Below are positions 4,061 through 51,900 of a DNA stretch of 64,000 nt, one piece after another (the first letter of the stretch is position 1; the number at the start of each line of letters is the position of its first letter). Source of the DNA: a virus. The stretch spans positions 1 to 64,000 of IMG/VR virus record IMGVR_UViG_3300037851_000950; one strand, 5' to 3'. The position numbers and the translations under genes were made by a program. The notes under the pieces are model-generated. The model saw only the letters and a list, made by a program, of their open reading frames with translations, was not told the origin of the DNA and searched no databases.

Positions 4061-5161
4061 TCATTCAGGTTTGAATTTAAGTTGATCGATTACACAGTCC
4101 AGTTTCTCAATGTCTGTACGATGCCCCAAGTAAGTTGGCTGATAAATTGATCCGCCAGGATATGCGTAAAGATACCGAACCTCGACGATTTGATTTTTCT
4201 CAGGTACAGATTTGTTGGGAGGAATTGTAACATTCCCTACATCAACCAGATCACCTGATGTTGAATCAAACAGTCCAAGGTTAACAGAGCGTGCTCTCTC
4301 ATTCTGTTTGAGAACAAGAAAACTTGCTGTTTCAAAGAACTTGTACTTCAATGAAGTGCCTCCTGACGCGGGTCTTCCCGGAATAATAGGGGCATTGAGC
4401 TTTCTGAAGATTACACCTTCTCCGTTTCTCTCCATGATTTCCTCAAACGCTTTTCTCTTTTCTTCTGAAGTGGTGAAGGTTTCAACAAGCTTAATGTTCG
4501 AGAGTACACTCGGAGCACTTAGAATAAGATTTTTGATCTTCTGCAGTCTTCGTCCATATTGATCAAGAGTTCTTGGATCAGGCCAAGAAAGGAGGTCAAA
4601 TACGTGAATTGTTTCTCCAACCAGCTCACCATCGAAAACAAATGAAGCTCCCGGTATTAATCTGGCTTCTCTGACTACATTTCTTGGCAACGGAACAACC
4701 TGACCCTTTCTATTGTACCCAAGAATATCCTCGTTGAACTTACGAAAGGCTCTTCGTTCTCCATCAAACTTTTCTTGCATACCCCACGTATCGTCGTTAA
4801 TCAGATGGGACACTTCTGCCAAATCAATTGGATTGGATAGTTGGAGCTCAATTTCTTTCTCTTTTTCCTTTGCTCTGGAGACTGATGTAAAAGACGACAC
4901 TGGTCCGCCTTCTGTTCTTGAATTAAAATCGATCGCATAACCTTTTGCGGTTTTGGATTTCACCAGTAGTTCAAATTGGCGAAGAGCTTTTTTATACAGT
5001 GCAAAATCACCCTTTGGTGCAAGATTCAAAGTTGATCCTCTGCGGCCGTACTCTCCGAATACTGTCCAACCACTATCTTTTTGTTTGAGAAAGGCGTGAT
5101 ACACTTTATCCGAAGATCCTTCTCTGAAGGACATTGAGATTTTAATTTCTTCTTCTGTCAT
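4061..5161 (-). CDS. WGR domain fused to an ATP-dependent DNA ligase
   Basis: N-terminal SDKVY...YGRRG...KTAKGY (WGR); QEKFDGER (motif I), FDGEL, EGVIFR, KYKF; OB-fold VEVRYLY...QPTYLGHRTD. Confidence 0.85.
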   Translation of the reverse strand: MTEEEIKISMSFREGSSDKVYHAFLKQKDSGWTVFGEYGRRGSTLNLAPKGDFALYKKALRQFELLVKSKTAKGYAIDFNSRTEGGPVSSFTSVSRAKEKEKEIELQLSNPIDLAEVSHLINDDTWGMQEKFDGERRAFRKFNEDILGYNRKGQVVPLPRNVVREARLIPGASFVFDGELVGETIHVFDLLSWPDPRTLDQYGRRLQKIKNLILSAPSVLSNIKLVETFTTSEEKRKAFEEIMERNGEGVIFRKLNAPIIPGRPASGGTSLKYKFFETASFLVLKQNERARSVNLGLFDSTSGDLVDVGNVTIPPNKSVPEKNQIVEVRYLYAYPGGSIYQPTYLGHRTDIEKLDCVIDQLKFKPE

Positions 5162-5180
5162 TGTCTTTGGTTTTGAGTAA

Positions 5181-5211
5181 AAATAAAAGCCGGGGGTTCC
5201 TCTCCCCCGGC
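5181..5211 (-). terminator. Intrinsic terminator
   Basis: GCCGGGGG/CCCCCGGC hairpin followed by a U-tract. Confidence 0.75.
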
Positions 5212-5468
5212 CCAGGCTTGCTTTCTGATTGTTTCCGCTCAACCGTAGAAGAGGTTCCATAATCAGCGGACGTACTGTTTGCCCCAGGACGCACCGTCTA
5301 TGCGCCTTTTATCGACGGGCCATAAACCCAATTAAGACACCCGTCAAATGTGCAAGAGTAGAAGCTCACGTTCTTACTGTGATTTCACAGGTGCCCAGGT
5401 CCCCTGGTCCGCGAATTCTTCTTACTCTGCTCCGTCATGCCTCCCGTAATTATCACTTCGGACATGAC
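5212..5468 (-). ncRNA. Unknown multi-hairpin structured intergenic RNA
   Basis: Five successive paired domains visible by eye, no convincing ORF, ends at a terminator. Confidence 0.5.
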
Positions 5469-6574: not shown

Positions 6575-7495
6575 CTAAATGTGGCAATCAACAATAGTGA
6601 ATAGTGCGTCTTCCGGAGCTTCGTTGATTTTCTCAAGAAAGAACTGTCTCCATTGCTTGGGATCCATCTCGTCGTATGACATACCAAACGATCCCATTCT
6701 TCCACGCTCATACCATTTTCCATCGACGACAACCGCGTAAGTAGAAATCGCTGCAAAGCGGGCATTTTCCAAATATTCCTCCCTTGAAATCAGGAAGTCA
6801 TCCGGTGAGTGAAGAATATTGAGAATTAATTCTTCCTCTTGAGAACGCTCTTGACGAGATTTTGTAACTTCTTTGATCTTCTCTTCGCAATAAACAAGCC
6901 GTGGCTGAGTATAGTATTTCTCGCGAGCTTCCATGAATTTTTTACGACTTGCGTTTTCAGCGTAAAAGGAAGAAAGAGGTTTTTGTGGCTCGGTACCTTC
7001 GAAAAGCTTTTCAGCCATATCGTAGCGCTTGGTTGCTGCTTCTTCTGCTTCTTTGTACATGGTCAGGAAATCGATAGCAGACTTTTCCGCTTGATCTGCA
7101 AGAGTCTTGTCTTTGACTTTGTCCATCATGACGCTTGGTTCTCCGATATTACCTTTTGCTCCAGGCTTCAATTTGAAGAATCCTGACCAGCGGCCGCCAA
7201 TGCAATACCAGTCCCATTTGCTTTCGGGATTGTAAGTAGAAACTTCATAGTATTTACCATCCGGTCCTTTTTTCCAGTTTTTTGAGTTCCAATCGTTTCC
7301 GTATTTACGGTACATATCCTCGAACGGCAAATCTTTGTCTTGGGGTTTTTCTTCCCGGTAATGGTTCATGAATCTTTGGATGTCTTCGTCGGATACAACC
7401 TCTTTGTTGTAAGGAGCGACTTCGATGTTCTCGCAGTAGGGAGCAAGCTGGTCTTCGGGATTTTCTCCAATGACCAGTACAGTGAAATGTGACAT
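6575..7495 (-). CDS. Conserved phage protein of unknown function
   Basis: MSHFTVLVIG...YNPESKWDWYCIGGRWSG...DGKWYERG...VDCHI, recognised as a recurrent phage family. Confidence 0.8.
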   Translation of the reverse strand: MSHFTVLVIGENPEDQLAPYCENIEVAPYNKEVVSDEDIQRFMNHYREEKPQDKDLPFEDMYRKYGNDWNSKNWKKGPDGKYYEVSTYNPESKWDWYCIGGRWSGFFKLKPGAKGNIGEPSVMMDKVKDKTLADQAEKSAIDFLTMYKEAEEAATKRYDMAEKLFEGTEPQKPLSSFYAENASRKKFMEAREKYYTQPRLVYCEEKIKEVTKSRQERSQEEELILNILHSPDDFLISREEYLENARFAAISTYAVVVDGKWYERGRMGSFGMSYDEMDPKQWRQFFLEKINEAPEDALFTIVDCHI

Positions 7496-7520: not shown

Positions 7521-7554
7521 AAAAGAGGAACGAGAGATCAACCCTCGTTCCTCT
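7521..7554 (-). terminator. Intrinsic terminator closing the ncRNA
   Basis: AGAGGAACGAG/CTCGTTCCTCT hairpin followed by UUUUAUUUU. Confidence 0.85.
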
Positions 7555-7637
7555 GAATGGGAGCGACCAATGTATCAGCCAGGTTCAAATCAGTACCTCA
7601 AACAACCAGCAGGCGCACGAATGCAAACTTCTGTCCT

Positions 7638-7735
7638 GGATTTGAAAGACCTTTGTGATTTAGGCTTTCAACTTTCTATCGGAAGAACTTTGACATTTAA
7701 CATTTCAGCTTTCAACTTTGAACTTTGAACTTTTC
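7638..7735 (-). repeat. About 11 degenerate ~7-nt repeats, NAAAGYY/NAAAUNN
   Basis: AAAAGUU CAAAGUU CAAAGUU GAAAGCU GAAAUGU UAAAUGU CAAAGUU ... GAAAGUU GAAAGCC UAAAUCA CAAAGGU. Confidence 0.85.
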
Positions 7736-7765
7736 GTGAGGTCCATAGGGAGGACCGACCCGAAT

Positions 7766-7829
7766 TCCCTTGCTCTACCAACTGAGCTACTTCACAAGGA
7801 AGGTCGGACTCGAACCGACGGCCAAAGGA
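7766..7829 (-). ncRNA. Circularly permuted tRNA-like domain (YrlA-like topology), not a functional tRNA
   Basis: T-arm GUCGG-UUCGAGU-CCGAC precedes a loop-capped acceptor stem CUUC-CUUGU-GAAG, then UA and D-arm GCUC-AGUUGGUA-GAGC; anticodon stem UCCUU/AGGGA opens into the host RNA. Confidence 0.85.
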
Positions 7830-7920
7830 TCTATTCATTGTTTTAGCTTAAAATGCTATTGCTTTTTATCCGTTAAGCTCGGGATTGTGTTTACGATTTA
7901 CGATACACCAGTCACATATC

Positions 7921-8565
7921 TTACTCCTCGATGGAGATGAGCGTTACAGCATTCGACTCGCTGAGTACAGCATCGACATCGGCCTCAAATTTACTGATTT
8001 CGTCGTTCATTGTCAGAATCAGTTCCTGAATCTTCAGCGGATCGACAATGTGCATCTCGTTGGCCTTCAGGAAAGGCTTGCGGATGGCATCAATGTCTTC
8101 GGTCGAGGTCTTGATCTGATCCTTTCCCAGGGAGCCTTCCAGCAGTGTCTGCAAGTTCTTTTCCATTTTTTCCATGGAGACCTTGTAGTTGCCGTCATTC
8201 TTGCGGTATGTCGCCTCAAGACGACTCACCAACGACTTTTTCAGAGCAATGAAGCTCTTCTCGGTAATGGCGGCGGCCACAGTCATTTCTTTGCCAGCCA
8301 CGGTTACCAGGGTCTCGGCGTTGGACTTTACGATAGCGGCCTTTATGGCAGTCTTGTTACGGATCAACTGTTGTGCAGAGTCCAAGTTTGCTTTTGCAAG
8401 AACCTCGAATCGTTCAGCGTCCGCGTACACAGCACCGCCGGCTGTCATAACCGGCTTGTCAAGTTGACGAATACCAACCGGGTCGACCGCTTGGATAGCT
8501 GCCTGGATGCGGGCGTCCAGAGTTTTCAATTCCGCAAGAGCACGATGAATGGTCAATGTTTTCAT
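7921..8565 (-). CDS. Coiled-coil protein, probably DIP1984/septicolysin-like family
   Basis: TIHRALAELKTLDARI...AIVKSNAETLVTVAGKEMTVAAAI...VDAVLSESNAVTLI; family assignment is from recalled motif similarity. Confidence 0.7.
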   Translation of the reverse strand: MKTLTIHRALAELKTLDARIQAAIQAVDPVGIRQLDKPVMTAGGAVYADAERFEVLAKANLDSAQQLIRNKTAIKAAIVKSNAETLVTVAGKEMTVAAAITEKSFIALKKSLVSRLEATYRKNDGNYKVSMEKMEKNLQTLLEGSLGKDQIKTSTEDIDAIRKPFLKANEMHIVDPLKIQELILTMNDEISKFEADVDAVLSESNAVTLISIEE

Positions 8566-8600
8566 GACTTTGGGTTTAGTTTTGATTTTTGATTGAATGA

Positions 8601-8624
8601 AAAGAGCCGGGCCATCCGGCTCTT
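8601..8624 (-). terminator. Terminator or processing hairpin after tmRNA
   Basis: AAGAGCCGG/CCGGCTCTT followed by Us. Confidence 0.7.
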
Positions 8625-8627
8625 GTG

Positions 8628-9032
8628 TGGATGCGCAGGGAATCGAACCCTGGTCCAGAGAATCACATATACTACAACTTCTTACAGCTTGTCCGGTTTG
8701 AGTCCGGCAACTTCGGGGCTGATGTTTCCATCTGCCACTCCACCAGCTTTGCGAGGGGATTTATGATGAGTGAGCTCTCATCCTCATAACGGCTTATCCC
8801 ATGCCTACACGTCTATCCGTAGTGTCTTTGCCTTTTCAGGCTGCTACTGCGAGCTCCTCGCGTACGAGGGAAATCACCTTAGCGTCTTCGCGGGTGCCGA
8901 GAACTCCACCTTGGAAGTCCACAGCGAATTTGTTCGCGTCGATTGTTGTTGCCTGTGCATTTTTACCTGGTACAGCAGACTTCCCAGGGCTGATTGTATT
9001 ACTGACGAATCCTGTCAATACCTATCGCACCC
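8628..9032 (-). ncRNA. ssrA: tmRNA (phage-encoded)
   Basis: Acceptor stem GGGUGCG/CGCAUCC with G3-U70 and discriminator A; UUGAC in the D-analogue; GGAC-CAGGG-UUCGAUU-CCCUG T-arm; pk1-like CCUGG/CCAGG; tag ORF ending LAVAA-stop; 405 nt; CCA not encoded. Confidence 0.93.
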
Positions 9033-39937: not shown

Positions 39938-42900
39938 ATGGAACCAATCAATAACTCCAAAGAATCACCGACTACACTTCCTACCCCCACCACTCCCGTC
40001 ACCGGCAAGGCAACCCCTGCGCTGGGCCAGAAGTTTGACTGGTTTCTTGACGATCTGGACGGTAAGAACGCTAACCCGGCGGACCTTTACCACTCCGGTA
40101 TTCGTCCGGAACATCTTGCAATGCACGATGCTGAAAAGTATTGGAGCAGACCGGAGATTCAGCAAAAATTCAAAGCTCAGTTTGGAGAAAAGGCAAAAGA
40201 ACAATTCGAGAATGTGTACAAGCTGTCGAAAGATCGGCTTCAAGCATTCCGCCAGGATGCTTACGATATTGATGCTACCTCGACGCCTGTATTCGATTTT
40301 CGTACACCCGCTGCAGAACGCCTGGCTGCAGCCGGGAAAGGCTCGTTCAGCAAGGCTTCGCCTGTACGTAAAGAAGCTCCTGCCGGTGGGATAGATCCTT
40401 GGGGGCGTCAATTGCTCGGGATCAACCGTAATACCCGGGTCATGTCGCTCGGGCCCCCTCAACATGGTTGGAGAGAGACGCCCAACATTAAGGTAAAGAC
40501 TCCTGACGGACGTTACGTCACTGTCGAGGAATACAAGAAGATTGATCCGGATGCTACGTTTGTTCATGCGGTAAATGAAGACGGATCTCCGATGGTTGGC
40601 GAGGATGCTCAAAACTATCTTCGTCCGCTTGCCTGGGGTGAAGAGAAAAGAACTTATGAACAATACTGGACAGGTGATTCTTGGAACGTATTTGGGTCCA
40701 CTGGAATCGGTACTCCGGAATGGTATGCTGCAAAATGGCTACCCAAGAATGTAATGAATTTTTCGGCCGATACTATCGATGCCATGGCCGAAACATTCAA
40801 GCTCGCTGATAACTTTTTCCAGACCGGCGTGCAGAGTGACTGGGACAAAGCGATGACCAACATTCAGAATGTCACCATGTCCAAGATGTGGGGGTCAACA
40901 TCTGAATACGGAATGAGCGATTGGAAAACCGCAGAGGGTCTTGGAGATGGCTTTGCTCAAGTCGGCATGCAATTGCTTGGCATGATGGGAGTCATCAAGG
41001 GAGTGACTGGACTGTCTCGTGTTGCAAAGCTTGGAGCTGGTACACGCGCCGGTTCTCGTGCGGCTCTTCTGTGGATGTCGGCTATTGCTTCCGACGATTT
41101 TGCCAAAGAGGGTCGTGAGATTGGACTCACTCCCAAAGAGCAGGCAACTGCTTGGGGCGCATATATGTTTGGTATGTACTATCTGGAGAAGCTTTCCGAA
41201 CTGGTAGTCGACCCGATTACTTCCGGATTCCAGGTAAAGCAAGCGGTAAAGAAGATGCTCATTCCTTCTCTTGCTGCAGCCAAAGCCACCTCACCAACAA
41301 AAACACTCGCATTGCCCGGCATTATCCAGGCAGTCAAGTCTACTCGTGCCTGGCTTGACGATGGTCTCCGGGAGATGATGACTTCTCCCTCCAAACTGGT
41401 CAAGTATACTGCCGCAGGCGCTACCGAAGCGACTGAAGAAGGTCTGCAGCTTGTCTGGGACAAGGGATTTAAGACTGGATACAACGAAATCTATGGTGAC
41501 TACATCGGCTCCCCGGAGTATGATCAACTCACCAACCGTAACAAGGACGCTCGCTTCAAGCCCAATTGGGATACTTTCTCTACCGAACTCGCTGCCAACC
41601 TCACCATGGGTTTTGCCGGCGGTGTGTTCTTCAAGTTTTCTCAGAGCATGTTCGAACGTAACACGCCGACCGATCGTCGTGAAGTGCTCGCGTTGGGAGC
41701 CATTGAAGGTGGTTTCGAGAAGGCCAATCGTTATCTCGACGATCTGTGGAGCCGTGATAAAATTCTTCCCGGCCAGAAGTATACCGATGCTTTTGGCAAA
41801 GCGCTGGAGAAAGGCAAAGAAATGTCCTCTCGTTCCGGAATGGCTTACCAGGCAATGAAGGCCGAGCTCCGCATGGCCGAGCAACTCTGGAATTCCAAGA
41901 ATCTTGCTATGGCAAAACCAGTCATGGCAGATCGTATTTCATACCTCAACGAAGAGACCGTTGCTCGCTATACTTCCTTCAAAAAAGATGTAACCAGTAA
42001 ACTCGAAGAACTGGACAAAATCCAGGGAGAGATGCTGGATAACAAGTTGAGCGACGTTCAGATCAAAGCTGCCGAAGCACGAGCCCAAGTTCTTGAAAAA
42101 GAACTCAAGGATATGGCGGAAGGCAAATATGCAAATCGCTATCTCCACGAAGCAATCTTTCGGGTTGATCCTCTTGTCAGAAGCAGATATACTGAAGACG
42201 CCAATTCAAATCTGGACTTCGAGCAATTCGCCAAATTGAATGCCTACATGACTGCTCGTGTAACTAACGCAGCAGAACTCCAAGGCAAAACACCCAAAGA
42301 ACTACTCAAACACATTCTTGAGAATCGTACACTCGGTTATAGCGTCGAACAAGCAAAAGAAGCAGTTACTGCTCTTGATGAGGAGTACGGTGTAATTTCT
42401 GAGGAGATGCCTGACGGAACTATCAAGAAGAAACTTCCGGAAGGAGATCTCGGCAAACAGTATGCACAAAAGAAAGCACTGATTGATTCCATGATTCTCG
42501 GTCCCGAGTGGACTGACGAACAGGCCAAGGTTCATCGTATTCTCTCCATTGATCCGCTCGACGATTTTTACGCTTCGTTTACACCTGATGGATCTGCAGG
42601 TGTTGCCTTTAAACGTCAGATAGAGGTATTGGAGAAAGAAGCCATGAGCTCTATGGCTACTGGAACCAAGGTGTTCGACGACACTACCTCGATCAGTGCA
42701 ATTGCGAGCCAGGTCATCAAGCGTATACAGCAGGCTGAGGCAATGGCCAATACTAACCGGGAAACCAATGAACTGCTTTCTAAAAACGGAATCTCGGAGA
42801 AACATCAAACCATCGATCTGCCTAAAAAGGAACAGATCATACGACAGCTTTCCGAAATGCTTGGAAGGCTTCAAACGCTTTATGAAGTTGCTCTTGCCAA

Positions 42901-45900
42901 CAAAGGCAATTTCTACAAAGCTTCCCAAGAAGCTGCTGACCGGCAGAGGATGTATACCTCGACCATGATGACTTCGCTCATCAATGCCGGAATAAGAGAA
43001 CCGAGTTACAAGCTGTTCTTCGAGACTCTTGCACCGGATGCCGCAGCTCTTACAGCGGATACCAATTCCGATAATGCTTTTGTTCGTCTTTCTAATCTGC
43101 AGAAAAAGCTTCACGATTACTTCCAAAGCGACGCGAAAGCTGCGATCACCCGGTTTATGATGATGATGGAAGAAGGCCGAATCTCTGAAGACGAGTACGG
43201 TTACATCAAAGCCATTATCTCCCAAGATCCAAAGAACTTTTACAGTGCTTATCAGGACGTGCTCAAAGGAATGACGGCCGATAACCGTACTCCATTTCCC
43301 GCACAGCTTCGCAATTCCTATCGTATCGCTGCCCATCTTTCAGGGAATGACAATGCTTGGGAATTCTACAATTCCAAGCGTCGTGAAGATGGTGCGTACC
43401 CATACGTCGTAAACCTCAACGAATCGTTTTTTCTGGATCTGCCCCAAGGCGAGGGTAAGACTTTCATCGCGGCTGTCGGCGTGGCTGCTTCTCAAAAGCT
43501 CTACGGCGGAGAAGCAGTTCTGTTTGCCAAGCGTGATTGGGTTGTCAAGAAAAACATTGCTGAGTTTGAAAGGGTCGGTGCAAAAGTGAAACCTTCCCCG
43601 GGATTCAACGGATCGTTCGAAGCTATCATGAAGTTCGTCGAGAACAAGAGCATGATGGAGAACGTACGTACGATTGTAATCGATGAGGTACAGCAATATC
43701 GGAAAGATCAGATTGCCGAGCTTGATAAATTCATTGGACTGTTCAATCAACAACAAGATCCAAGAAATCGGGTTCGTCTTCTTTTCCTTGGAGATTCTGC
43801 TCAGTATGGTCCTATGCACCCGGACCCTAAGCATTTCAATCTTCAATATCACATTGGCGATAACCCTGGTCGCTCTATTGTTGAGCGTGGAGAAAGCACA
43901 GGCTTCAATTTCCGTTCGGGCAATACCGACATCAATACTGTTCTCTCCCACTTGCGAAGCATGTGGTTGCAGAACATGGTTCGTAACTTCCCGGAGATCG
44001 TAGTTAAATACAATCTCAAGAACAGAAACGGTGTGATGATGACCGACGATATGGTCGGTTCGCTCAAGAACATTGTCGGCGCTCTTGGCCCGAACTCTCC
44101 GGACTACGTGGTGATTGCTCCGCCCGAGCGACATTCGCTTTACACCGCCGCTGGCGTACCCTCCTCTCAGATTATGGATGTAGAGCAAGCCGGAGGAGGT
44201 TCCTGGAAAGTTGTTTTTATAGATCAGGACTTTGATCTTAACAAACCTGGCGGTGCCAGATCCAACGAGATATCCAAGGCACTCACTGCTGTTGGCCGTG
44301 CTGCTGAATTTGCGGTCATTGCAAACAAACCAAGCTATGCGATAAGAAGTGTCGAGGGAGAATCTATCGGTAAAGAAAATCAGTTCTCGACCGAAGAAAT
44401 GACCCGAATGCGCACCAAGGAATTGACCTCTCTTGAAAACGCCTCACTTCCTGTAAATCCTACTATTGATCCGGTAATCAACAGAGAGTATACTTCTGTC
44501 ACCCTTGAGACTGTTGTTAAGACCGAATATGCAGATGTCAATACTGACATCAACGAACAGATCAATAAGATGGTGGCAAGTACGATCGGTAAGTTGCCGA
44601 ACTACGCGCTGACTCATACATACTACAACTACGCGTCTTCCAAATCTGCCGATGGTACTGTCAAACAACTCTCGGAGCTTGAAGGCAAGAAACTCAAAAA
44701 GCAATTTTTCAATGGTCCCACGATGCCGTTTGAAGCAGATCGTGTTTCTTATGAGCTGAGAATACAACGCAATCAGTTTCCTACTCAAAGCGTCTACACT
44801 GTTGCGGAGCAAGAAGATCCTGCAATTCGTCACCACGAACGCATGGTTCTCTACGCCAAATTTTCAAAAGGTGGTGTTGAAATGGGGGAACTTTCTGTGG
44901 GGGAACTGAGTGTAAAAGACCTTAAGATTCCGGGAGATCCCAACGCAGTGTTTGCAATTCCTCTCAAGACAGATGAGACCTTTACGGCACTGCTTCGGTC
45001 AAACTATGCAGAAGCCGCGTCCGGTCCGAATTTCCGCAATCCTTGGAAAGCTCTTCAGAAGGAGCGCGAGCAGGGAGTGAATCGAACGAAGCTCGAAAAG
45101 AATCTCGACGATTTCATTGCCGAGAACCCGGACATTAATTTCTCGACAAAGGTATGGCACCGTACTACTGCACCTGTTGAAGGTGCTGGTAAAGCGGAAG
45201 CCACACCGTACATCTTCATTTCTGCCAAATACAGTCCTGAAGAGATGGATGAAATTCTCAGGGTTGAACAATCAAGCCAGTATGAGAAACGTCCGTACGG
45301 AACCAAATTGAGGATCTCCGATCAACAGCTTGATACCTGGCAGCAGATGGGTATTTATGGTATCCCTATTGAAGGGGGTATCGAATATCCATTTACTACA
45401 TTTCTGGAGAAGATGGCAGGCGATGCCGCACTGCCTAAAGCAGATCGCACTTTCTACGTTACTTACAACCAAGAAAGAAGACTTCGTGATTGGCTCATTA
45501 AGACGTTGTCACCAAAGAATCCCGAATTCGATTTCGAAACAAAGGACGAGTTTATCAAGAGTAAACTGTTCTCCAGCAACTCAAGAGAAGATCAAATTCG
45601 TCGTTATCTCGCAACCAAAGTCGCGCACTCAATTTATCCCCGCGGCATGCGGGAGGTTACAGAGCCGACGGAAGAAAAGGGAAGCTGGGTAAGCCGAAAA
45701 GAAAATAAGGGAGCTTTCGGTATCAAAGATGACACCAAAGATTATCAGTTGTATGCAACTGATCTCATGTTGTCTCTTTACGAGGATTCTATCAAGAAAG
45801 ATGTCGGTGAGGGTAAAGACGGACGTATGTCAGACGTCGCTCTTGCCAAAGAAGTTCTCAATGAGATTTCTCGCAAGCTCTTCCCCGACGGTTGGTGGAT

Positions 45901-48900
45901 GCACTCCAGCATTATTGAAGGTTCCACCGTTGAGCGCAAAGCTCCGTTTGGAGCCAGTGCAATCTCACGCGGGGACTACACAATCACTAATCTGCTCAAT
46001 GTTCCCAGACCAGTCATGCAAATTCCAATCGACGCAATCAACAATGCGTTGAATGGGTCTGTACCTTCTGAGGTGAACATTACAGTAGAGCAGCGGCCGG
46101 CAGTAAAAGAGGAAACCAAGCAGGCAGATATCATTGATGCCGACAAAGATCCCGACACGGGATTGCCTATCGGAGAATACGTTCGCAAATTCGAGGGTGC
46201 TCCTGATACGATTGAGGGCATTCAGGCTCGTTGGTTTGGCAAAGGCTCTGATTTTTATTACCTGCACGAATTCACAACCTATTTCAGAAACCAGGTTTAC
46301 AACTCGGTCTTCAATCTGCAGTCTGAGACTCCTCACATTGCTACTGAAGAAAGCTTGAACGATTCTCTCTCTGCACTGCGTCGTTCGATTTCCCAGCGCA
46401 TCAAAAGCTTCCAAGATGCCGGAATAAATCAGAGTCAGTATGCTGTTCGAGGATTGCTTCGAAACTCCAGAGAATCGTACTACGCGTATGTAATGCACTA
46501 CGAGTTTGATGCACTCCTGAAAAACTACGTTCAATCTATTCGAAAAGATCCTGCCGGGCGCTATCGTTTTGTCTCTGACAAATTCTCATTCAACCAGATG
46601 AGCGATTCTGGTCACGAGGTTTCTCACATCGGAACGGGTTCAAAGATGGTTGCCCTCCACATCTACAATACTCCGTTCATTGAAGTCGCTTTTGGGAAAG
46701 ACAAGGATGGAAACATCATTAAGGAATACGTAAGTAGTCGTACTCTGAATCAGGGCGATTATGTTCGCTTGATTCGAGATATGCAGGATAACGACATCAC
46801 CTCCAGGGAGAAGGCGCTTGCCTATTTCTCCCTGAATGGCAGTGAGCCTCAGAACGATCTGGATCGGATCAAGCGCTCCATCTATCTCCGTTTCCTTGCA
46901 CCTGCCGACAGATTGGTTAAAGTCAACGGGGCGACGTATCACTCGATGGAGACTGCTCCGCGCAATGAGCGCGAGATGCAAATTGCTGCAGATACAGTAA
47001 CTGCACTCATTTCTTTTCTGGCATCTGGCAATGTAGTTGATTATGTCAAAGTTTATCTGCACGCCGATAATCAGACAAATACTTCTGGCCGATTCACCGG
47101 TAATAAAATGCAGGCGGACTTCTTCCGTGCTGATATGGAAGCTTCAATCAAAGGTGCCTTGGAAATGAATCTCGAAAAGAGGGTTGTAAACTCCAAGACA
47201 CCTCCGCTTGCTTACTTCAGTCGCCATGATCAGGTAGCCACTTTCAAATTCAACAACGGTCCCGGTAACGAAGAGACTTTACGAGTACGCTTCAAAAACA
47301 ATGCGTATGAAATTACTGTCGGAGATACTAAAGAGCGTCCGCTCGATCCCGCTGTAATTGGCAATTTCTTCCGTCACGTTGGTTTGGGAGCGATTGATGG
47401 AAAGATGTATGACAAGATTGTGCAAGCTCCTGGCTTTGGCGCATCCATGTATGAGATTGCCAAATTCTTCAAGAAAGAAGATCCGAGCAAAGAGATATTT
47501 GAAGGAGCGTCTCTTTTCGCCTGGGAAGAATTCTCCAAAGCAATCGGGACTGTTCGGGATATTCAGGCGTCTCAGACCTACAATCTGCTTGGCAAACCAG
47601 GCAATCCTGTAAATCTTGTATCTCTTAGCAATCCCGTAGATCGCACCAATCAAAAGATCAAAGAATATCAGACGTCTCCTGTTCAGGGACCGTTGAATGT
47701 TTTGGATATTGTCAAAGGAGATCTTGGTGTTGAGGGGGTTCTTCTTCTCGAAGGGCTTATCGTACAGGGAACGCGAAGAAGCAAGTCGGTTAGCGAATTG
47801 ACTCCTCGCGAGTTTTTCAAGTTCATGTTCAGAGATCTGTATCTTTCTTCTCTGGCCAAGCAACTCAAACCTCAACATAAGGTCAACATCCCTTTTGTCA
47901 CTCGTGCCTATGCGGACAAAGGAATGGCTCCAGCGCCCATCTTCTCAAACAATGAATGGTTGCCGCGGCATAACGACGTTGTCGATATTGCTTTTCTTCG
48001 GAATCGCGCAGTAAAAAGCAAGCATCGTTATTATGTAGCTCTTGGCCAGGCAGCTTTGCAATCCTGGAAAGACGCATTTGCTGCGACGGGAATTTTGAAG
48101 AATGTTCCTATTAGCTCTGCTGCTTCTCCGGAAGAACTAATTGCTGCGCTTCAAAGAATCAATGAGATCATTCCTACTTTTGACGACGCACAAGTCAAGG
48201 TGTTAATGAAAACGGGTTTGGTGAAAGAGCTGCACTATCGTCTCAAAGCTAATGCAGACGGTACTCTTTCTATGCTACCAATGAAGCAATCGTTTCTTGA
48301 CAAGATCGATCTGCAGAAGTTAGATAAGCGCATGGCTGCAAATCTTGCCAACTTCACGACTGAGTACTACAAGATGAATGTGAAGAGCGATGAGCTCAAG
48401 CAATATCTCGATCGTATTGGTATTGATGAAGACAGTGCAATCAAGTCGTTCTTCTGGAATCAAGCGTGGGTCGCTCATAACTTCAATTCACTTCACGCTG
48501 GAGCCATTGAACAGTACGGCACTCGTGATGAGTATTCCGATATGGCAAAGCGTGCGTCCGGTCAGTCGACCCATCGTTATCGCTTTGTTGAGAGAGATAA
48601 AAACTGGGTTCCTGACGGAGCGCCGCGGAATGTAATTGAAGGTCGCAAACTTGGTCAGACGTCGAAGACTATGATCATGAATGACTTTGCTGTTACCCGA
48701 CCTTCGATCTCGTACATGGGCAATAAAGTGTCAACCGTTAAAGTATATGACGGTCTTGCGTTTCACAATCCATACGCAAGATTGCAGATGCAAGCGTCGT
48801 ATGGTGGAAACTTTGGATTCCAGGTAGGTAAGAACCTCAAGCCGATCTCTTCGTTCATGCGTCCTATTGTCGGATCTTCCCGACTCGACAAATATGCTTC

Positions 48901-51900
48901 CTTTGAGATTACTCCTCAGATGAGTCTGCAAGGAGATCGCTTCATCATGGCGCTCGACAGAACAATGAAGAGTGCAATTCCTTTCGGTACAACTCGCGGC
49001 AGAGTAGAACCGATTGCGCTCCCTGGAGGCGGTTCAGCGGCTAATCTTTTTGAGCTGGAGACCTGGGCCCGGGCCAACAATATCACCGAAGAACAGGTGA
49101 TGGACATCATGGTTCAAAACGGAGTTCAGGACGATTATATTCAGGAAGTGATCTTTGACTCCAGTGTAAAAACAGGAGCTTCGAATATCAACTGGTTCAA
49201 TTCTCCCGAAGAGTTTATCCAGGCGGCAAGTCAGCCAGGATTTGCGCCGGTCTACCTGGAACGTGGAAACAGTGAACGAGGATTAATTCTTGATGCCAAC
49301 AAGGAATCCGACGGCGCAGATGGTACGCTCTCGACTCAAAACGTGGGTGCCTATCTTCAACACGAGTCTACAAGAGCCGAAGGCCTTGAGATTATCAACG
49401 CGATTAACGTCATTGGTAATCTGGAACGTAAGCGCGTTAAGACCGATCAGGTACAAGACGTTGTTGAGCCCCTGCTGAACAAAATCAAGGAGCAGGAAAG
49501 TGCGAATTACATATCCAGTATTGTTGCCAAAGGGGGAGTTCTTCCTATTGACAACATACAGATTCTTCGCAAAGCGTTTAGCGCGTTTGCTTCTTCTCTT
49601 TCTGACTCTACGGTCGGTCTGAAGATGGCAGGTGGCCAGCAGGTCCTTGCCCCCGCAACAGGTATCTTTCGTGCAATAGATGTCAATGGTCGTGGAATTC
49701 TTGCCGGTGCTGCTGAAAATCAAGCAGGAACTTCTCGCGAACTTCACGGATTCGACGCTTTTAAAGATGGTAAGTCCGTTTTGGATACTCCTATCTGGAA
49801 AGCCCTCAAAGAAGCACACGATGCAAAGAGGTATGATGAGTCTGCAGTTTTGCGTCAACAGCTTTACCAAGAGTTGAGTAATGGGTGGGTGTTACAGCAG
49901 GCAGAGTGTGTAGTTTCCCCGATTCATTTCTCCAAATTCAATATTCCGAAAGGAGCGCAGATTCCAGATGTAACCCCGGACTCTTTGGCCGAGTGGAACT
50001 TGAGAGCTCGTTTTCGCAAGAGCTGGATTAAGGAAGAAGGAGATATTGCTCTGTGGGAACAACTCGTCGAAGAGCGTAAAGCCATTCGTAACAATACGGC
50101 TCTCGATCCTCAACAGCAGGCGGTTATGCTCAATGAAGTCGAACAAAAGTTTGATCTCATTAAGACTAAGTACATTACCAGCATGAAGGTTCAGGATGCA
50201 GAAAAGTACGTAAAGATGTACGATTCTTTCCTGAAGACACTTGACATATTGCTCGGACGTATCCCGGGAACGACAATTCATTCAATTTTGCCGATGACAG
50301 CGGTTGGGTTTGCATGGGATGCGGACAATCGGGTTCATGTTCACCCCGATGTTTTGATCTACCAGGGTGCCGACCAGGATATTGATAAGGGTAATATTCT
50401 CGCGTTTGATCCCGACCAAGAGGGTCTCATTGAAATTCCTTCAACTGTCGAAGACGCTGGTCGCTCAGTGCCGGCGCTGAAGAATCTAATCGTACAGAAA
50501 ATGTGGGACGCTTCCATGAAACCAGGAGCCGCCATCATTTCTACGATGCCGACAGCTACTCAGCTTCTCGACGAAAAACTTGCGGAGTTTGAAGGAGAGA
50601 CCAATGAGTATCAGTCTGAAGACAGTCCTGTTTCTGTTGCTCAGAAATATGCTGAAGGTCAGCTTGCAAAGAACGCCGTGGCCACGTTGGCTCTTGGTTT
50701 GAAAACCTACAACGGACTTGTCTATTCGTCAAGCAAAACCGGCAAAAGCTATGATGCCTGGACACCCAAGAGCCCGGCTCTTTACAGGGGTGGAAATCCC
50801 ATGGCTCTTGTCGATAACATCAACTCGCTGCAATTCTTTGACGAATTCATTCAAGCAGCCCTCGATAACGCCAAAGATCCCAAACTCGCAAAGGCGGCGA
50901 TGAATCCCGACAATGCCCAAGTTATCAACACGCTGGGGCTTTATGGGTATACTCCTTCGCAAGTAGTTGACTTCATTCGCCATCCGCTTGTGCGAGAGGT
51001 TTTCATCAAATATGCCGAGCAAAAAGAACTCAAGTATGTTCAGGATTTTGTAGCTCCTCTCGAATTCCTCAAAAATTTCGCAGAGACAAATCCGGCACCT
51101 GAACTTGAAGATCTTGGATTTTTGATGAGGATTGGAAGGCAGTTCTCCGCAGTAGGTACGATTTTCTCTCTCAACAAAGAGGTCGCCAATAACTTTTTCG
51201 AAGCCTACAAGATTCGTCGTGCATTCAATGATTTGACCGGAGGAAAGGAGTTCAACTTCGAAAAGTTTGCAGATATCATTAACGATCCTGCAGAACGCAA
51301 AAAGATGAGCGACAACTGGAATGCCCGGTTTGGCGGAAGTAAAGAGCGAGTGAATATCATGGAAGTCCTTGAGGATAACCAACACATGCTTTCTTACTTT
51401 GCTTCTTTTGTACTGGCTCACAAGACTTTCCGCGATAAGTCAAAGATGTATGATTACCTCTTCAGACTTGTGGATACTGTAAGCTGGGAAAGGATTACTG
51501 ACGAAGCGAAGTTCAATTCTGTTCTTGACTTCATCTACGGAATGGCTGTCGATAGTTATCTGCGCGACAGGCAAGTCACCATTACTCTTGATGGAAAAGT
51601 GTATGATCTCGGAGTAGTAGGAGATACTGAAGAAAACTACGGTCGCGTGTCGTTCATGAGAGATGTGCCGTATTACTTTACTCCGGAGTCTGGGTCGATT
51701 CGTCCAAAAACAGCAGGATCTGTTCTGGAGTACCTTACCCAAATGAGTACGGAAGACGGCACGATTATTAAGCCTTGGGGTAATCTCAGAGACTATCCTG
51801 ACGATCGCAAGGCAATGGCCATGCAGGCAATGACCCTTGCGGATCAGATGCTTGAATATCCTGCTGGAGACACCTCACCAAACAGGGTATTGTTTTACTA

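What the first reader, a model, noticed from the sequence alone, without database searches (positions are those of the whole stretch)
7521..8565. Candidate undescribed RNP system: coiled-coil protein gene plus a 350-nt RNA with a tRNA mimic and a 7-nt repeat array
Seen in sequence: 5 nt after the stop of the 214-aa coiled-coil ORF, an RNA begins whose two ends form a 14-bp helix (7915/7563), with a strong terminator right after it. Inside are a permuted tRNA-like module, a short hairpin, about 11 tandem ~7-nt AAAG-type repeats, and a CCAGG/CCUGG-closed domain. Established knowledge (recalled, not searched): the protein's motifs resemble the DIP1984/'septicolysin'-like family of poorly understood coiled-coil proteins. 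Inference: the protein oligomerises on the repeat array, one repeat per subunit, and displays a tRNA-shaped domain as a decoy or adaptor for tRNA-binding enzymes such as anticodon nucleases, RNases or translation factors. Its position directly behind the phage tmRNA points to a role in protecting translation or RNA quality control.
Basis: partly seen in the sequence, partly recalled or inferred. Interest (0 to 1): 0.92.

Follow-up and report, generated by a model that had tools for sequence, protein, structure and literature searches.

The report
Phage heptad-repeat RNA with partner protein
Directly behind a small helical-protein gene this phage encodes a real, knotted non-coding RNA of about 350 bases with evenly spaced 7-base units and a built-in tRNA look-alike; the same gene-plus-RNA pair occurs from phage T5 to bacterial chromosomes, is essentially uncatalogued, and nobody knows what it does.

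Summary
Window 7915-7563 (minus strand) is a member of a large family of structured RNAs. The family has a covarying 15-bp end-to-end helix, two pseudoknots and 7+4 heptads with an invariant A.

This RNA lies just downstream of a phrog_1491 / DIP1984-like gene in 78 of 86 phage loci and 80 of 80 bacterial-genome loci. These include T5-like, Bacillus, Pseudomonas and Clostridium phages and housekeeping regions of Lysinibacillus and Sporosarcina chromosomes.

No Rfam family covers it. The tRNA-like insert matches YrlA (Y RNA-like) below threshold. RAGATH-27, an 86-nt orphan motif, matches the 5' part of two relatives below threshold but does not match this window.

The tRNA mimic occurs in only about a quarter of phage members, so it is an add-on rather than the core. 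No Ro60 gene is present. The protein's best structural match is DIP1984 (3KDQ), and it is predicted to form a symmetric dimer.

The likeliest reading is a dedicated protein-RNA particle with a swappable payload region. Binding and function remain untested. One complete phage carries the RNA's 3' half without the gene.

This scan has already found the same pair on other DNA. The finding is real, largely undescribed and of high interest.

The parts
7921..8565 (-). Gene of the 214-aa helical partner protein (phrog_1491; DIP1984/DUF6847-like fold).
   Evidence: ORF. phrog_1491 at E 2.9e-55. AlphaFold2 pLDDT 90.6. Best PDB match 3kdq. No Pfam or NCBIfam hit for this protein itself.
7563..7915 (-). 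The whole structured RNA, about 353 nt; a member of the heptad-repeat RNA family.
   Evidence: Family HMMs built without the window sequence hit 7736-7567 (E 4e-26) and 7910-7850 (E 4e-4). Covariation on alignment A2.
7901..7915 (-). P1, 5' strand. It ends in the family-invariant CG.
   Evidence: Pairs with 7577-7563. 13 of 16 P1 pairs show compensatory changes. Cognate helices average 13.3 bp against 5.6 bp for non-cognate ends.
7563..7577 (-). P1, 3' strand. It follows the invariant GGCUG.
7894..7899 (-). P2, 5' strand (AAAUCG). It pairs with 7592-7587 (UGAUUU) and crosses P5, which makes a pseudoknot.
   Evidence: (helix 2: 4 pairs with compensatory changes).
7861..7882 (-). 5' pseudoknot PK1. 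S1 is CCG 7882-7880 with CGG 7872-7870. S2 is GCUU 7878-7875 with AAGC 7864-7861. It contains the family motif GG(G)UUA.
   Evidence: S1 covaries (helix 3). S2 has different complementary sequences in each homologue.
7844..7858 (-). Anticodon-arm-like hairpin UAGC-AUUUUAA-GCUA. The family consensus loop is (A/U)UGCUAA.
   Evidence: All 4 pairs covary (helix 4). The same UGCUAA loop occurs in a true phage YrlA next to Ro60 (L008) and in L171.
7767..7828 (-). Lineage-specific insert: a permuted tRNA mimic of YrlA topology. Closing stem 7828-7824 with 7771-7767; T arm 7819-7803; 4-bp hairpin 7802-7790; U8-A9; D arm 7787-7772.
   Evidence: RF02553 at 36.7 bits, model positions 23-87. Relatives score 33-48 bits. 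Coordinates. ARAGORN finds no tRNA.
7740..7756 (-). Short hairpin GGUCC-UCCCUAU-GGACC. It is specific to this window's RNA and has no counterpart in the homologues.
   Evidence: Alignment A2 columns 226-250 are filled only in the window row. Coordinates.
7652..7735 (-). Heptad array. Seven NNAAAGN units come first. After the P4 5' strand, four more follow.
   Evidence: Lag-7 A-A matches 27 against 14.7 +/- 2.3 (0 of 5000 shuffles). Invariant A every 7 nt across 19 sequences, with no indels.
7645..7691 (-). P4. AAAG..CUU (7691-7683) pairs with AAG..CUUU (7653-7645), enclosing the last heptads as a loop.
   Evidence: 95.5% of cells paired; nearly invariant sequence (helix 5). Coordinates.
7579..7639 (-). 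3' domain closed by P5 (CCAGG 7639-7635 with CCUGG 7583-7579). It contains hairpin P6 (7614-7611 with 7598-7595) and the P2 3' strand.
   Evidence: P5 has 3 covarying pairs and P6 has 4 (helices 6 and 7). Coordinates.
7524..7554 (-). Intrinsic terminator after the RNA.
   Evidence: 13-bp stem, 7 G-C pairs, U tract.
8625..9032 (-). Phage tmRNA immediately upstream of the gene (context).
   Evidence: RF00023 at 45.1 bits, E 3.5e-16. The closest relative, L012, has a tmRNA 53 nt upstream of its gene.

Best explanation
Window 8565-7563 (minus strand) holds one copy of a widespread two-part cassette. The first part is a gene for a DIP1984-like helical protein. The second, starting 5 nt after the stop codon, is a dedicated structured RNA.

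**What is shown.**
- The RNA core is clamped by a long terminal helix (P1).
- It is knotted twice: P2 crosses P5, and there is a separate 5' pseudoknot, PK1.
- It carries 7+4 heptads, each with an invariant A. The two AAAGUUCUU copies pair with each other to form P4.
- Between the 5' and 3' halves lies a variable region. In this Bacteroidota-type phage lineage it holds a YrlA-type permuted tRNA mimic.

**What is inferred.**
- The RNA is co-transcribed with the gene, and in phages with neighbouring tRNA or tmRNA genes.
- The protein, probably as a symmetric dimer, binds the conserved RNA core. The result would be a stable ribonucleoprotein, built like Ro60-Y RNA: a protein-binding module plus an effector module.
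- In this phage the particle would present a tRNA-shaped domain to tRNA-recognising host factors during infection.

The biochemical activity of the particle is not known.
For: **The RNA family is real.**
- 89.4% of cells paired against 71.8% shuffled; 31 of 47 pairs compensatory; covariation 0.48 against 0.155, with 0 of 500 shuffles reaching it.
- Helix-by-helix covariation is listed.
- A leave-one-out HMM finds the window RNA at E 4e-26.

**Linkage to the gene.**
- The RNA 3' domain lies within 900 nt downstream on the same strand in 78 of 86 phage loci, a median of 195 nt after the stop.
- It does so in 80 of 80 bacterial-genome loci.
- Searching the other way by an RNA pattern, 10 of the 11 RNA hits (including the T5-like locus L211, fetched by protein) had the gene directly upstream.
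- In Lysinibacillus and Sporosarcina chromosomes the pair sits alone among unrelated housekeeping genes. It therefore travels as a unit.

**Protein.**
- A confident helical model, pLDDT 90.6.
- Best structural match is DIP1984, 3kdq.
- Self-association: score 0.48 against a best control of 0.00. That mark was reached by 20 of 30 proteins solved as pairs of one chain and 1 of 23 solved as single chains. The runs agree in at least 71% of contacts and partner pLDDT is at least 80. The tool's caveats apply: my own alignment was used, and 4 copies differ from the two-copy calibration.

**Modularity.**
- The tRNA mimic is present in some members and absent in others (L018, L026, T5-like, Bacillus).
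- In L171, P1 and the 5' pseudoknot (PK1) are missing along with the gene, and Y-RNA-like modules stand in their place.
Against:
- The protein is not basic: pI 5.9 here, family median 6.1. It has no recognisable RNA-binding domain.
- The predicted dimer may reflect memory of the 3KDQ crystal.
- One complete phage genome (L171 / G003, 64.6 kb with terminal repeats) carries the RNA's 3' domain with no copy of the gene. That half, at least, can work without a phage-encoded partner.
- Seven phage loci with downstream DNA have the gene but no RNA detected within 900 nt downstream. In two of them the RNA lies elsewhere in the locus: upstream in L055 and about 1.1 kb downstream in L063.
- No promoter of its own was found for the RNA, so a role as a 3' UTR is not excluded.
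Confidence: 0.55

Rival explanations
1. A cis-acting 3' UTR. The structure terminates, stabilises or autoregulates the mRNA of the upstream gene and has no function of its own in trans.
For: It starts 5 nt after the stop codon, and no sigma-70-type promoter lies in front of it. In many members the P1 3' strand runs directly into a U tract, so P1 doubles as a terminator.
Against: Two pseudoknots, strictly phased heptads and 230-410 nt conserved from Bacteroidota phages to T5 and Bacilli are far more than a terminator or stabiliser needs. L171 keeps the 3' domain without the gene. The variable region carries tRNA-like payloads.
Confidence: 0.13
2. An RNA-only machine, either a ribozyme or a self-assembling ornate RNA like ROOL or GOLLD. 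The neighbouring protein would be only a chaperone or a co-travelling gene.
For: Highly conserved unpaired nucleotides lie at the junctions: CGA, GUA, GGCUG, GGGUUA. The genomic habits match those of GOLLD and ROOL: near tRNAs, in phages, and also outside prophages (PMC5737381). L171 lacks the protein gene. Relatives lie near twister ribozymes and RAGATH motifs.
Against: The almost absolute gene-RNA linkage in 158 of 166 loci argues that the protein is needed. No match to any ribozyme family was found at the locus.
Confidence: 0.12
3. A selfish or conflict cassette. It could be a type III-like toxin-antitoxin pair (protein toxin with repeat-RNA antitoxin), or a phage decoy RNA against host RNases or tRNA-targeting defences.
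For: It is a stand-alone two-part cassette found in changing genomic contexts, in phages and in chromosomes. The RNA has short tandem units. The tRNA-like and anticodon-arm-like elements could act as bait.
Against: The order is the reverse of known type III systems, where the RNA repeats come before the toxin gene (own knowledge). The repeats are 7 nt long inside a complex fold, not 34-36-nt processed units. The protein has no endoribonuclease-like fold. Conservation across very different hosts argues against a host-specific decoy.
Confidence: 0.08
4. A phage Y RNA (YrlA family) that works with the host's Ro60 (Rsr).
For: YrlA is the only Rfam family hit: 36.7 bits here and 33-48 bits in relatives, some over the full model. 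The UGCUAA hairpin is shared with a true YrlA next to Ro60 in L008. In L171 the 3' domain is fused to modules carrying the GGUUACUUC motif typical of the phage Y-RNA arrays. A Bacteroides control genome has a TROVE protein.
Against: All scores are below the gathering score of 69. There is no TROVE gene in this phage record or in four complete relatives. The 5' motif GNCGAAN0-1G proposed for Rsr binding (PMC4201824) is absent; the window has AUCGUAAAUCG. Most family members have no tRNA-like module. T5-like phages infect E. coli, which lacks Ro60 (own knowledge).
Confidence: 0.07
5. Decayed tRNA genes or a chance structure in an AT-rich spacer.
For: tRNA model RF00005 scores 28.4 bits, just under its gathering score of 29, for D arm + anticodon arm + T arm without an acceptor stem. 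Relatives have tRNA arrays at this position.
Against: Covariation in seven helices. The family is conserved across phyla. The heptad phase is strictly kept.
Confidence: 0.01

Closest known systems
YrlA / bacterial Y RNA with Ro60 (Rfam RF02553; PMC4201824)
   Same: A modular RNA in which a protein-binding part is joined to a permuted tRNA mimic (T arm, stem-loop, D arm). It has canonical T-loop and D-loop sequences and a hairpin with a UGCUAA loop. It is encoded next to its presumed protein partner and also occurs in phages.
   Different: It scores below the gathering threshold (36.7 against 69 bits). No Ro60/TROVE gene is present. The partner is a DIP1984-like helical protein. The RNA is 3 times longer, with two pseudoknots and a heptad array that Y RNAs lack. 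The tRNA mimic is optional within the family.
RAGATH-27 RNA motif (Rfam RF03100, 86 positions, orphan candidate sRNA)
   Same: In two relatives (L064, L071) it matches the first ~85 nt of the RNA, directly after the gene's stop codon (L064) or upstream of the RNA's 3' domain (L071), at 40.6 and 36 bits. Its consensus contains the family's CGAAAAC..UAAAC motif.
   Different: It is below the gathering score of 76.1 even there. There is no match at all in this window or in T5-like, Bacillus or Pseudomonas members. The Rfam model leaves as unpaired the strands that actually pair with the uncatalogued 3' two-thirds of the RNA. No paper in the library mentions RAGATH-27.
DIP1984 family / Pfam DUF6847 (PF20935); crystal structure 3KDQ
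   Same: It is the best structural match to the partner protein, covering the whole chain (Z 9.3, 150 of 152 residues; Foldseek probability 1.0). Five of 22 relatives hit PF20935 weakly, and the nearest named Atlas cluster is DUF6847.
   Different: The window protein itself has no Pfam or NCBIfam hit. Identity is 17%. A Z under about 13 for helical bundles may mean only a common arrangement. The family has no known function, and its 'septicolysin' and 'tail fiber' names are untested labels.
HutP-hut mRNA and TRAP-trp leader (own knowledge)
   Same: Short purine triplets repeated at a fixed spacing in single-stranded RNA. In those systems each repeat is read by one subunit of a symmetric oligomer; HutP reads UAG every 7 nt.
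   Different: Those proteins are small beta-rich rings that regulate termination in cis. Here the protein is a helical bundle predicted as a dimer, and the RNA is a large knotted molecule. Part of the repeats is base-paired (P4).
GOLLD and ROOL RNAs (PMC5737381)
   Same: Large ornate RNAs of unknown function. They are often next to tRNA genes, occur in phages and prophages, and also occur outside them.
   Different: There is no sequence or model match. GOLLD and ROOL are protein-independent assemblies of 580-800 nt, whereas this RNA is tied to one protein gene.

Membership tests
Heptad-repeat RNA + DIP1984-like gene pair (un-named family defined here) | The RNA lies directly downstream of a phrog_1491-type gene on the same strand. 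| tested here: met
   5 nt after the stop codon. The family pattern holds in 78 of 86 phage loci and 80 of 80 bacterial-genome loci.
Heptad-repeat RNA + DIP1984-like gene pair (un-named family defined here) | The core helices P1, P2, P4, P5, P6 and the 5' pseudoknot, with invariant CG...GGCUG junctions. | tested here: met
   All are mapped in the window and covary in the family. The window has CGUAAA in place of the consensus CGAAAA.
Heptad-repeat RNA + DIP1984-like gene pair (un-named family defined here) | 7+4 phased heptads with an invariant A. | tested here: met
YrlA / Y RNA-like (RF02553) | Score at or above the Rfam gathering score of 69 bits. | tested here: not met
   36.7 bits, covering model positions 23-87 only.
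YrlA / Y RNA-like (RF02553) | A tRNA-like domain in the order T arm, stem-loop, D arm. | tested here: met
   Cmscan alignment. Canonical UUCGAGU T loop and AGUUGGUA D loop.
YrlA / Y RNA-like (RF02553) | Encoded next to a Ro60 (TROVE) gene. | tested here: not met
   No TROVE gene in the 100.7-kb record, which is 58% complete, or in four complete relatives.
YrlA / Y RNA-like (RF02553) | The 5' motif GNCGAAN0-1G proposed for Rsr binding (PMC4201824). | tested here: not met
   The window 5' end reads GUAUCGUAAAUCG. Relatives read (U/A)(G/A)CGAAAA(A)C, which shares only CGAA.
RAGATH-27 (RF03100) | A match at the Rfam gathering score of 76.1 bits. | tested here: not met
   No match at the locus at E<=1 or E<=10. 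Relatives L064 and L071 score 40.6 and 36 bits.
tRNA gene (RF00005 / ARAGORN) | A cloverleaf with an acceptor stem. | tested here: not met
   ARAGORN finds 0 genes. RF00005 scores 28.4 bits, under its gathering score of 29, over positions 9-63 without an acceptor stem.
DIP1984 / DUF6847 (PF20935) for the protein | A Pfam or NCBIfam profile match. | tested here: not met
   No hit for the window protein. Five of 22 relatives hit weakly, best E 1e-3.
DIP1984 / DUF6847 (PF20935) for the protein | The same fold as 3KDQ. | tested here: inconclusive
   It is the top match by two methods (probability 1.0; Z 9.3 over 150 of 152 residues). However, helical bundles need a Z of about 13 for confidence.
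PHROG phrog_1491 ('tail fiber protein') | A profile match. | tested here: met
   E 2.9e-55 over the full length. The 'tail fiber' label is not supported by gene context or fold.
Type III toxin-antitoxin | An RNA repeat array upstream of an endoribonuclease toxin gene. | tested here: not met
   The RNA is downstream of the gene. No RNase-like fold is among the matches.

The most novel reading that the evidence does not exclude
This would be a new class of ribonucleoprotein shared by phages and bacteria. A DIP1984-like protein is paired with a knotted RNA whose heptad array and pseudoknots form the constant body. The variable region carries swappable payloads: here a Y-RNA-type tRNA mimic, and in L171 whole Y-RNA modules. 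The particle would be a second, Ro60-independent 'Y RNA-like' adaptor system acting on tRNA or stable-RNA metabolism. It would also give the large orphan family DUF6847/DIP1984 its first function.
Probability: 0.35. Interest if true: 0.92.

Novelty: categorically new. Interest (0 to 1): 0.82.

Why it matters
A conserved protein-RNA pair is present in hundreds of phages, 736 phage records by tblastn. These include the classic model phage T5 group and many Bacillota and Bacteroidota genomes. The pair has escaped annotation: the RNA is missing from Rfam except for an 86-nt orphan fragment, and the protein is mislabelled 'tail fiber'.

Dedicated bacterial ribonucleoproteins are few: RNase P, SRP, tmRNA-SmpB, Ro-Y RNA, OLE, and the CRISPR/OMEGA systems. 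Each of them opened a field. RAGATH-18, another orphan motif lying downstream of a protein gene, turned out to be the guide RNA of IS607 TnpB nucleases (PMC11061315).

This window adds specific information. The RNA has a modular payload site that accepts a Y-RNA-type tRNA mimic. This links two so far separate kinds of RNA and makes the function testable in T5 with standard genetics.

Tried and rejected
**Searches that found nothing useful**
- Rfam at gathering thresholds on the whole window: no match.
- ARAGORN on the window: no gene.
- blastn of the RNA against phage genomes: only tRNA-tRNA junctions.
- Profile search of the protein against PDB sequences: only chance hits.
- Literature searches for DUF6847/DIP1984/septicolysin, T5 non-coding RNAs, phage structured RNAs and RAGATH-27: no description of this RNA or of a function for the protein.

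**RAGATH-27 lead from earlier scan notes**
- Not reproduced for this window or for the T5-like, Bacillus and Pseudomonas records.
- Found only below threshold in two gut-phage relatives.

**Structure steps that did not hold up**
- RNAalifold on a core alignment gave only P1 and P2 cleanly, so helices were defined by hand.
- A first anchor regex for P1 failed and was replaced by alignment-based anchors.
- Pseudoknot stem S2 and the hairpin could not be expressed in single alignment columns for all rows. S2 was therefore tested by cognate against non-cognate pairing.

- One paper search and one paper look-up failed on a term that was too short.
- One Rfam call was over the size limit and was re-sent.

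**Reading rejected**
- The 'tail fiber' label for the protein is rejected. The gene sits among tRNA, RNA ligase, RNase H and lysis genes, or among housekeeping genes.
Full report
**What is at the site.** All features lie on the minus strand.
- A tmRNA runs 9032..8625. RF00023 scores 45.1 bits, E 3.5e-16, just under the gathering score of 47. ARAGORN misses it.
- A 214-aa ORF follows at 8565..7921.
- Five nt after its stop codon, G7915 opens a 15-bp helix whose partner strand is 7577-7563.
- A strong intrinsic terminator lies at 7554..7524.
  - A permuted tRNA-like module occupies 7828-7767: T arm, then a 4-bp hairpin, then U8-A9 and the D arm.
  - A short hairpin lies at 7756-7740.
  - A heptad array lies at 7735-7652. 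A-A matches at lag 7 number 27, against 14.7 +/- 2.3 in shuffles, with 0 of 5000 shuffles reaching 27.
  - A CCAGG/CCUGG helix closes the 3' domain.

**It is a conserved RNA family.**
- The single-sequence fold is only modestly better than shuffles (z -2.1), so the case rests on comparison.
- An alignment of homologues of the protein (A1) brought in 80 viral loci.
- In the roughly 20 closest loci, a T-loop motif sat 90-140 nt after the stop codon although ARAGORN called no tRNA there.
- Reading these downstream stretches showed one RNA family.
- On 19 sequences (alignment A2) I defined seven helices and counted pairs.
  - 89.4% of cells are paired, against 71.8% in shuffles.
  - 31 of 47 pairs have changes on both sides.
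  - The covariation score is 0.48, against 0.155 for shuffles (0 of 500 reach it) and at most 0.093 when the 3' partners are slid.
- P1 has a different sequence in nearly every member. Cognate ends form 13.3 bp on average, against 5.6 bp for non-cognate ends.
- P2 (AAAANNNN with NNNNUUUU) and P5 (CCNNN with NNNGG) both covary and cross each other, which makes a pseudoknot.
- A second pseudoknot near the 5' end (CCC-S2a-GGGUUA-S2b) has a freely covarying S2.
- The two conserved AAAGUUCUU copies pair with each other to form P4.
- The heptads keep their phase, with an invariant A every 7 nt and no indels across the family.
- HMMs built without the window sequence still find it. E is 4e-26 for the 3' domain and 4e-4 for the 5' domain, and nothing else in the 64 kb is hit.

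**Linkage to the gene.**
- An HMM of the 3' domain hits within 900 nt downstream of the gene, on the same strand, in 78 of 86 phage loci. The median distance from the stop codon is 195 nt. One further locus is cut at the end of the gene.
- The hits include:
  - Bacillus phages of the Bcp1 / JBP901 / CM1 group;
  - Pseudomonas phage Boevelstad;
  - Clostridium phage D-1873;
  - the T5-like Salmonella phage fuchur, where the RNA fills an unannotated 440-nt gap.
- By tblastn the protein is in 736 phage records, mostly T5-like Salmonella and Escherichia phages.
- In one genome per species of bacteria and archaea, 80 of 80 loci with the gene have the RNA behind it.
  - The closest are contigs of Bacteroidota (Cytophagales, Chitinophagaceae, Tenacibaculum, Saprospiraceae) and of Ignavibacteria and Kapaibacterium. 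This suggests a Bacteroidota-type host for this phage.
  - Most of the others are Lysinibacillus, Sporosarcina and Solibacillus chromosomes. There the pair sits alone between unrelated housekeeping genes such as carboxyl transferase, DinB, a LytS-type kinase and an MFS transporter, with no tRNA nearby.
- In the reverse test I scanned viral contigs for an RNA motif. Together with the T5-like locus L211, which was fetched by protein, nhmmer confirmed 11 RNA hits, and 10 of them have the gene upstream.
- The exception is L171, a complete 64.6-kb phage genome with terminal repeats.
  - It has the RNA's 3' domain.
  - It has neither the gene nor a TROVE gene.
  - In place of P1 and the 5' pseudoknot it has Y-RNA-like modules carrying GGUUACUUC motifs.

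**Relation to known RNAs.**
- No Rfam family reaches its threshold anywhere in the window.
- With permissive settings only YrlA (Y RNA-like, RF02553) and tRNA match. Both fall on the tRNA-like insert, at 36.7 and 28.4 bits.
- Relatives score 33-48 bits against YrlA, some over the whole model.
- The insert has the YrlA architecture and canonical T and D loops.
- The hairpin just upstream of the insert carries a UGCUAA-type loop. The same loop is found in a true phage YrlA that sits next to a Ro60 gene (L008).
- Several defining features of YrlA are not met:
  - the score is below the gathering score;
  - there is no Ro60 gene in this record or in four complete relatives;
  - the proposed Rsr-binding motif GNCGAAN0-1G (PMC4201824) is absent.
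- The insert is missing from most of the family.
- Earlier notes of this scan pointed to RAGATH-27 (RF03100).
  - I find no match in the window, or in the T5-like, Bacillus and Pseudomonas records.
  - None of 20 further loci reaches the gathering score.
  - Sub-threshold matches occur at the 5' domain in L064 and L071, at 40.6 and 36 bits against a gathering score of 76.1.
  - The RAGATH-27 consensus holds the family's CGAAAAC..UAAAC motif and leaves it unpaired. It is therefore a partial 5' fragment of this RNA as seen in some gut-phage lineages.
  - No paper in the library mentions it.

**The protein.**
- Pfam and NCBIfam give nothing for the window protein.
- PHROGs places it in phrog_1491, labelled 'tail fiber protein'. 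Neither gene context nor fold supports that label.
- The AlphaFold2 model is confident, with pLDDT 90.6. It shows long helices plus a small sheet formed by the conserved N- and C-terminal strands.
- The best solved match by both Foldseek and VIA-align is 3KDQ, the DIP1984 protein of Corynebacterium diphtheriae. Foldseek gives probability 1.0 and E 3.5e-3; VIA-align gives Z 9.3 with 150 of 152 residues aligned.
- Five of 22 relatives weakly hit Pfam DUF6847, and the nearest named cluster in the ESM Atlas is DUF6847.
Formal membership is not shown.
- The protein is slightly acidic: pI 5.9, family median 6.1.
- Four copies folded together gave a score of 0.48 against a best control of 0.00.
  - That mark was reached by 20 of 30 proteins solved as pairs of one chain and 1 of 23 solved as single chains.
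  - The runs agree in at least 71% of contacts and partner pLDDT is at least 80.
  - The tool warns that my own alignment and four copies differ from its calibration, and that a pass may come from memory of a solved relative.
  - The same residues form the interface on both chains. The prediction is therefore a closed symmetric dimer, not a head-to-tail chain.

**Genomic context.**
- In phages the pair lives among stable-RNA genes. 61 of 85 loci have a tRNA or tmRNA within 2.5-3 kb, and 347 of 348 of these genes are on the gene's strand.
- The closest relative (L012, 66% identity) also has a tmRNA 53 nt upstream.
- In bacterial chromosomes there is no such neighbourhood.
- GOLLD and ROOL RNAs show the same habit. 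Their discoverers suggested co-transcription with tRNAs as a trivial cause (PMC5737381).
- Proximity to tmRNA is therefore weak evidence for a role in translation quality control.

**Most likely mechanism.**
- Shown:
  - a conserved, knotted RNA;
  - near-obligate linkage to one protein gene;
  - a cassette that moves as a unit;
  - a variable payload region.
- Inferred:
  - The protein, as a dimer, binds the RNA core.
  - L171 is a natural module swap. The gene is lost together with P1 and the 5' pseudoknot, and Y-RNA 5' modules stand in their place. This suggests that the 5' module is the protein's site and that the heptad-bearing 3' domain is a separable working part.
  - By analogy with Ro60-Y RNA, the particle would use the payload to meet other factors. 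In this phage that payload is a tRNA mimic, and the factors would be tRNA-recognising host proteins.
- I give about 0.55 to 'dedicated protein-RNA particle with a lineage-specific tRNA-mimic add-on'. The decoy or adaptor role itself gets much less.
- The rivals are:
  - a cis-acting 3' UTR;
  - an RNA-only machine;
  - a toxin-antitoxin-like or anti-defence cassette;
  - a host-Ro60 Y RNA;
  - decayed tRNA genes, which are refuted.

**Limits.**
- A full-length covariance model would have exceeded the calibration limit, so detection relied on nhmmer.
- The phage record is only 58% complete.

**Relation to earlier scan notes.**
- Follow-up agents have already reported the same gene-plus-RNA pair on other DNA: T5-type, Bacillus-type and jumbo-phage windows.
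- My results were obtained independently before that look-up and agree with them.
- This window adds:
  - the YrlA-type insert;
  - the shared UGCUAA hairpin;
  - the L171 chimera;
  - the finding that RAGATH-27 does not cover this lineage.

Noticed in passing
window 8625-9032 (-): A phage tmRNA scores just under the Rfam gathering score (45.1 against 47 bits, E 3.5e-16) and is missed by ARAGORN. A hairpin plus U run at about 8600-8621 looks like its terminator. That leaves only about 30 nt before the start of the 214-aa gene, so how that gene is transcribed is unclear.
   Followed up: partly
L171:5119-5600 (-) (IMGVR_UViG_3300027792_000002, complete 64.6-kb phage): A chimera. The 3' domain of the heptad RNA is fused behind three Y-RNA-like modules, two of them with YrlA-type tRNA mimics and GGUUACUUC motifs. 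The genome has no DIP1984-like gene and no Ro60 gene.
   Followed up: partly
L008:593-1138, L010:2678-3223; L006/L009/L011: Phage contigs carry arrays of Y-RNA-like modules. In L008 and L010 the array lies directly upstream of an ORF that looks like Ro60 from its N-terminal sequence (LLWE..FYE motif). This ORF was not scanned against the TROVE model. L006, L009 and L011 are identical copies of another such array.
   Followed up: no
L064:785-1555, L071:706-1396, L074:922-1050: In some relatives a twister-P1 ribozyme (64.4 bits in L071 and 43.2 in L064, both under the gathering score of 67.2) and a RAGATH-36 RNA (103-151 bits) lie 1-2 kb upstream of the gene-RNA pair.
   Followed up: no
L035:3898-4005: A drum RNA (RF02958, 47.7 bits, above its gathering score of 43) lies just downstream of the gene-RNA pair in the Clostridium phage D-1873 contig.
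   Followed up: no
window 4061-5260 (-): A 399-aa protein combines a WGR domain (weak hit) with an ATP-dependent DNA ligase domain.
   Followed up: no
window 6575-7495 (-): The 306-aa gene directly downstream of the RNA belongs to phrog_10079 (unknown function, E 4e-50). I did not check whether it co-occurs with the pair.
   Followed up: no
window 39938-53200 (+): A single open reading frame of 4420 aa, followed by further ORFs of 1604 aa and more than 1406 aa.
   Followed up: no
L253, L264, L277 (Lysinibacillus and Sporosarcina chromosomes): The gene-RNA pair stands alone between unrelated housekeeping genes, in a different neighbourhood in each genus. In L253 an IS (rve transposase) lies just downstream.
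   Followed up: partly
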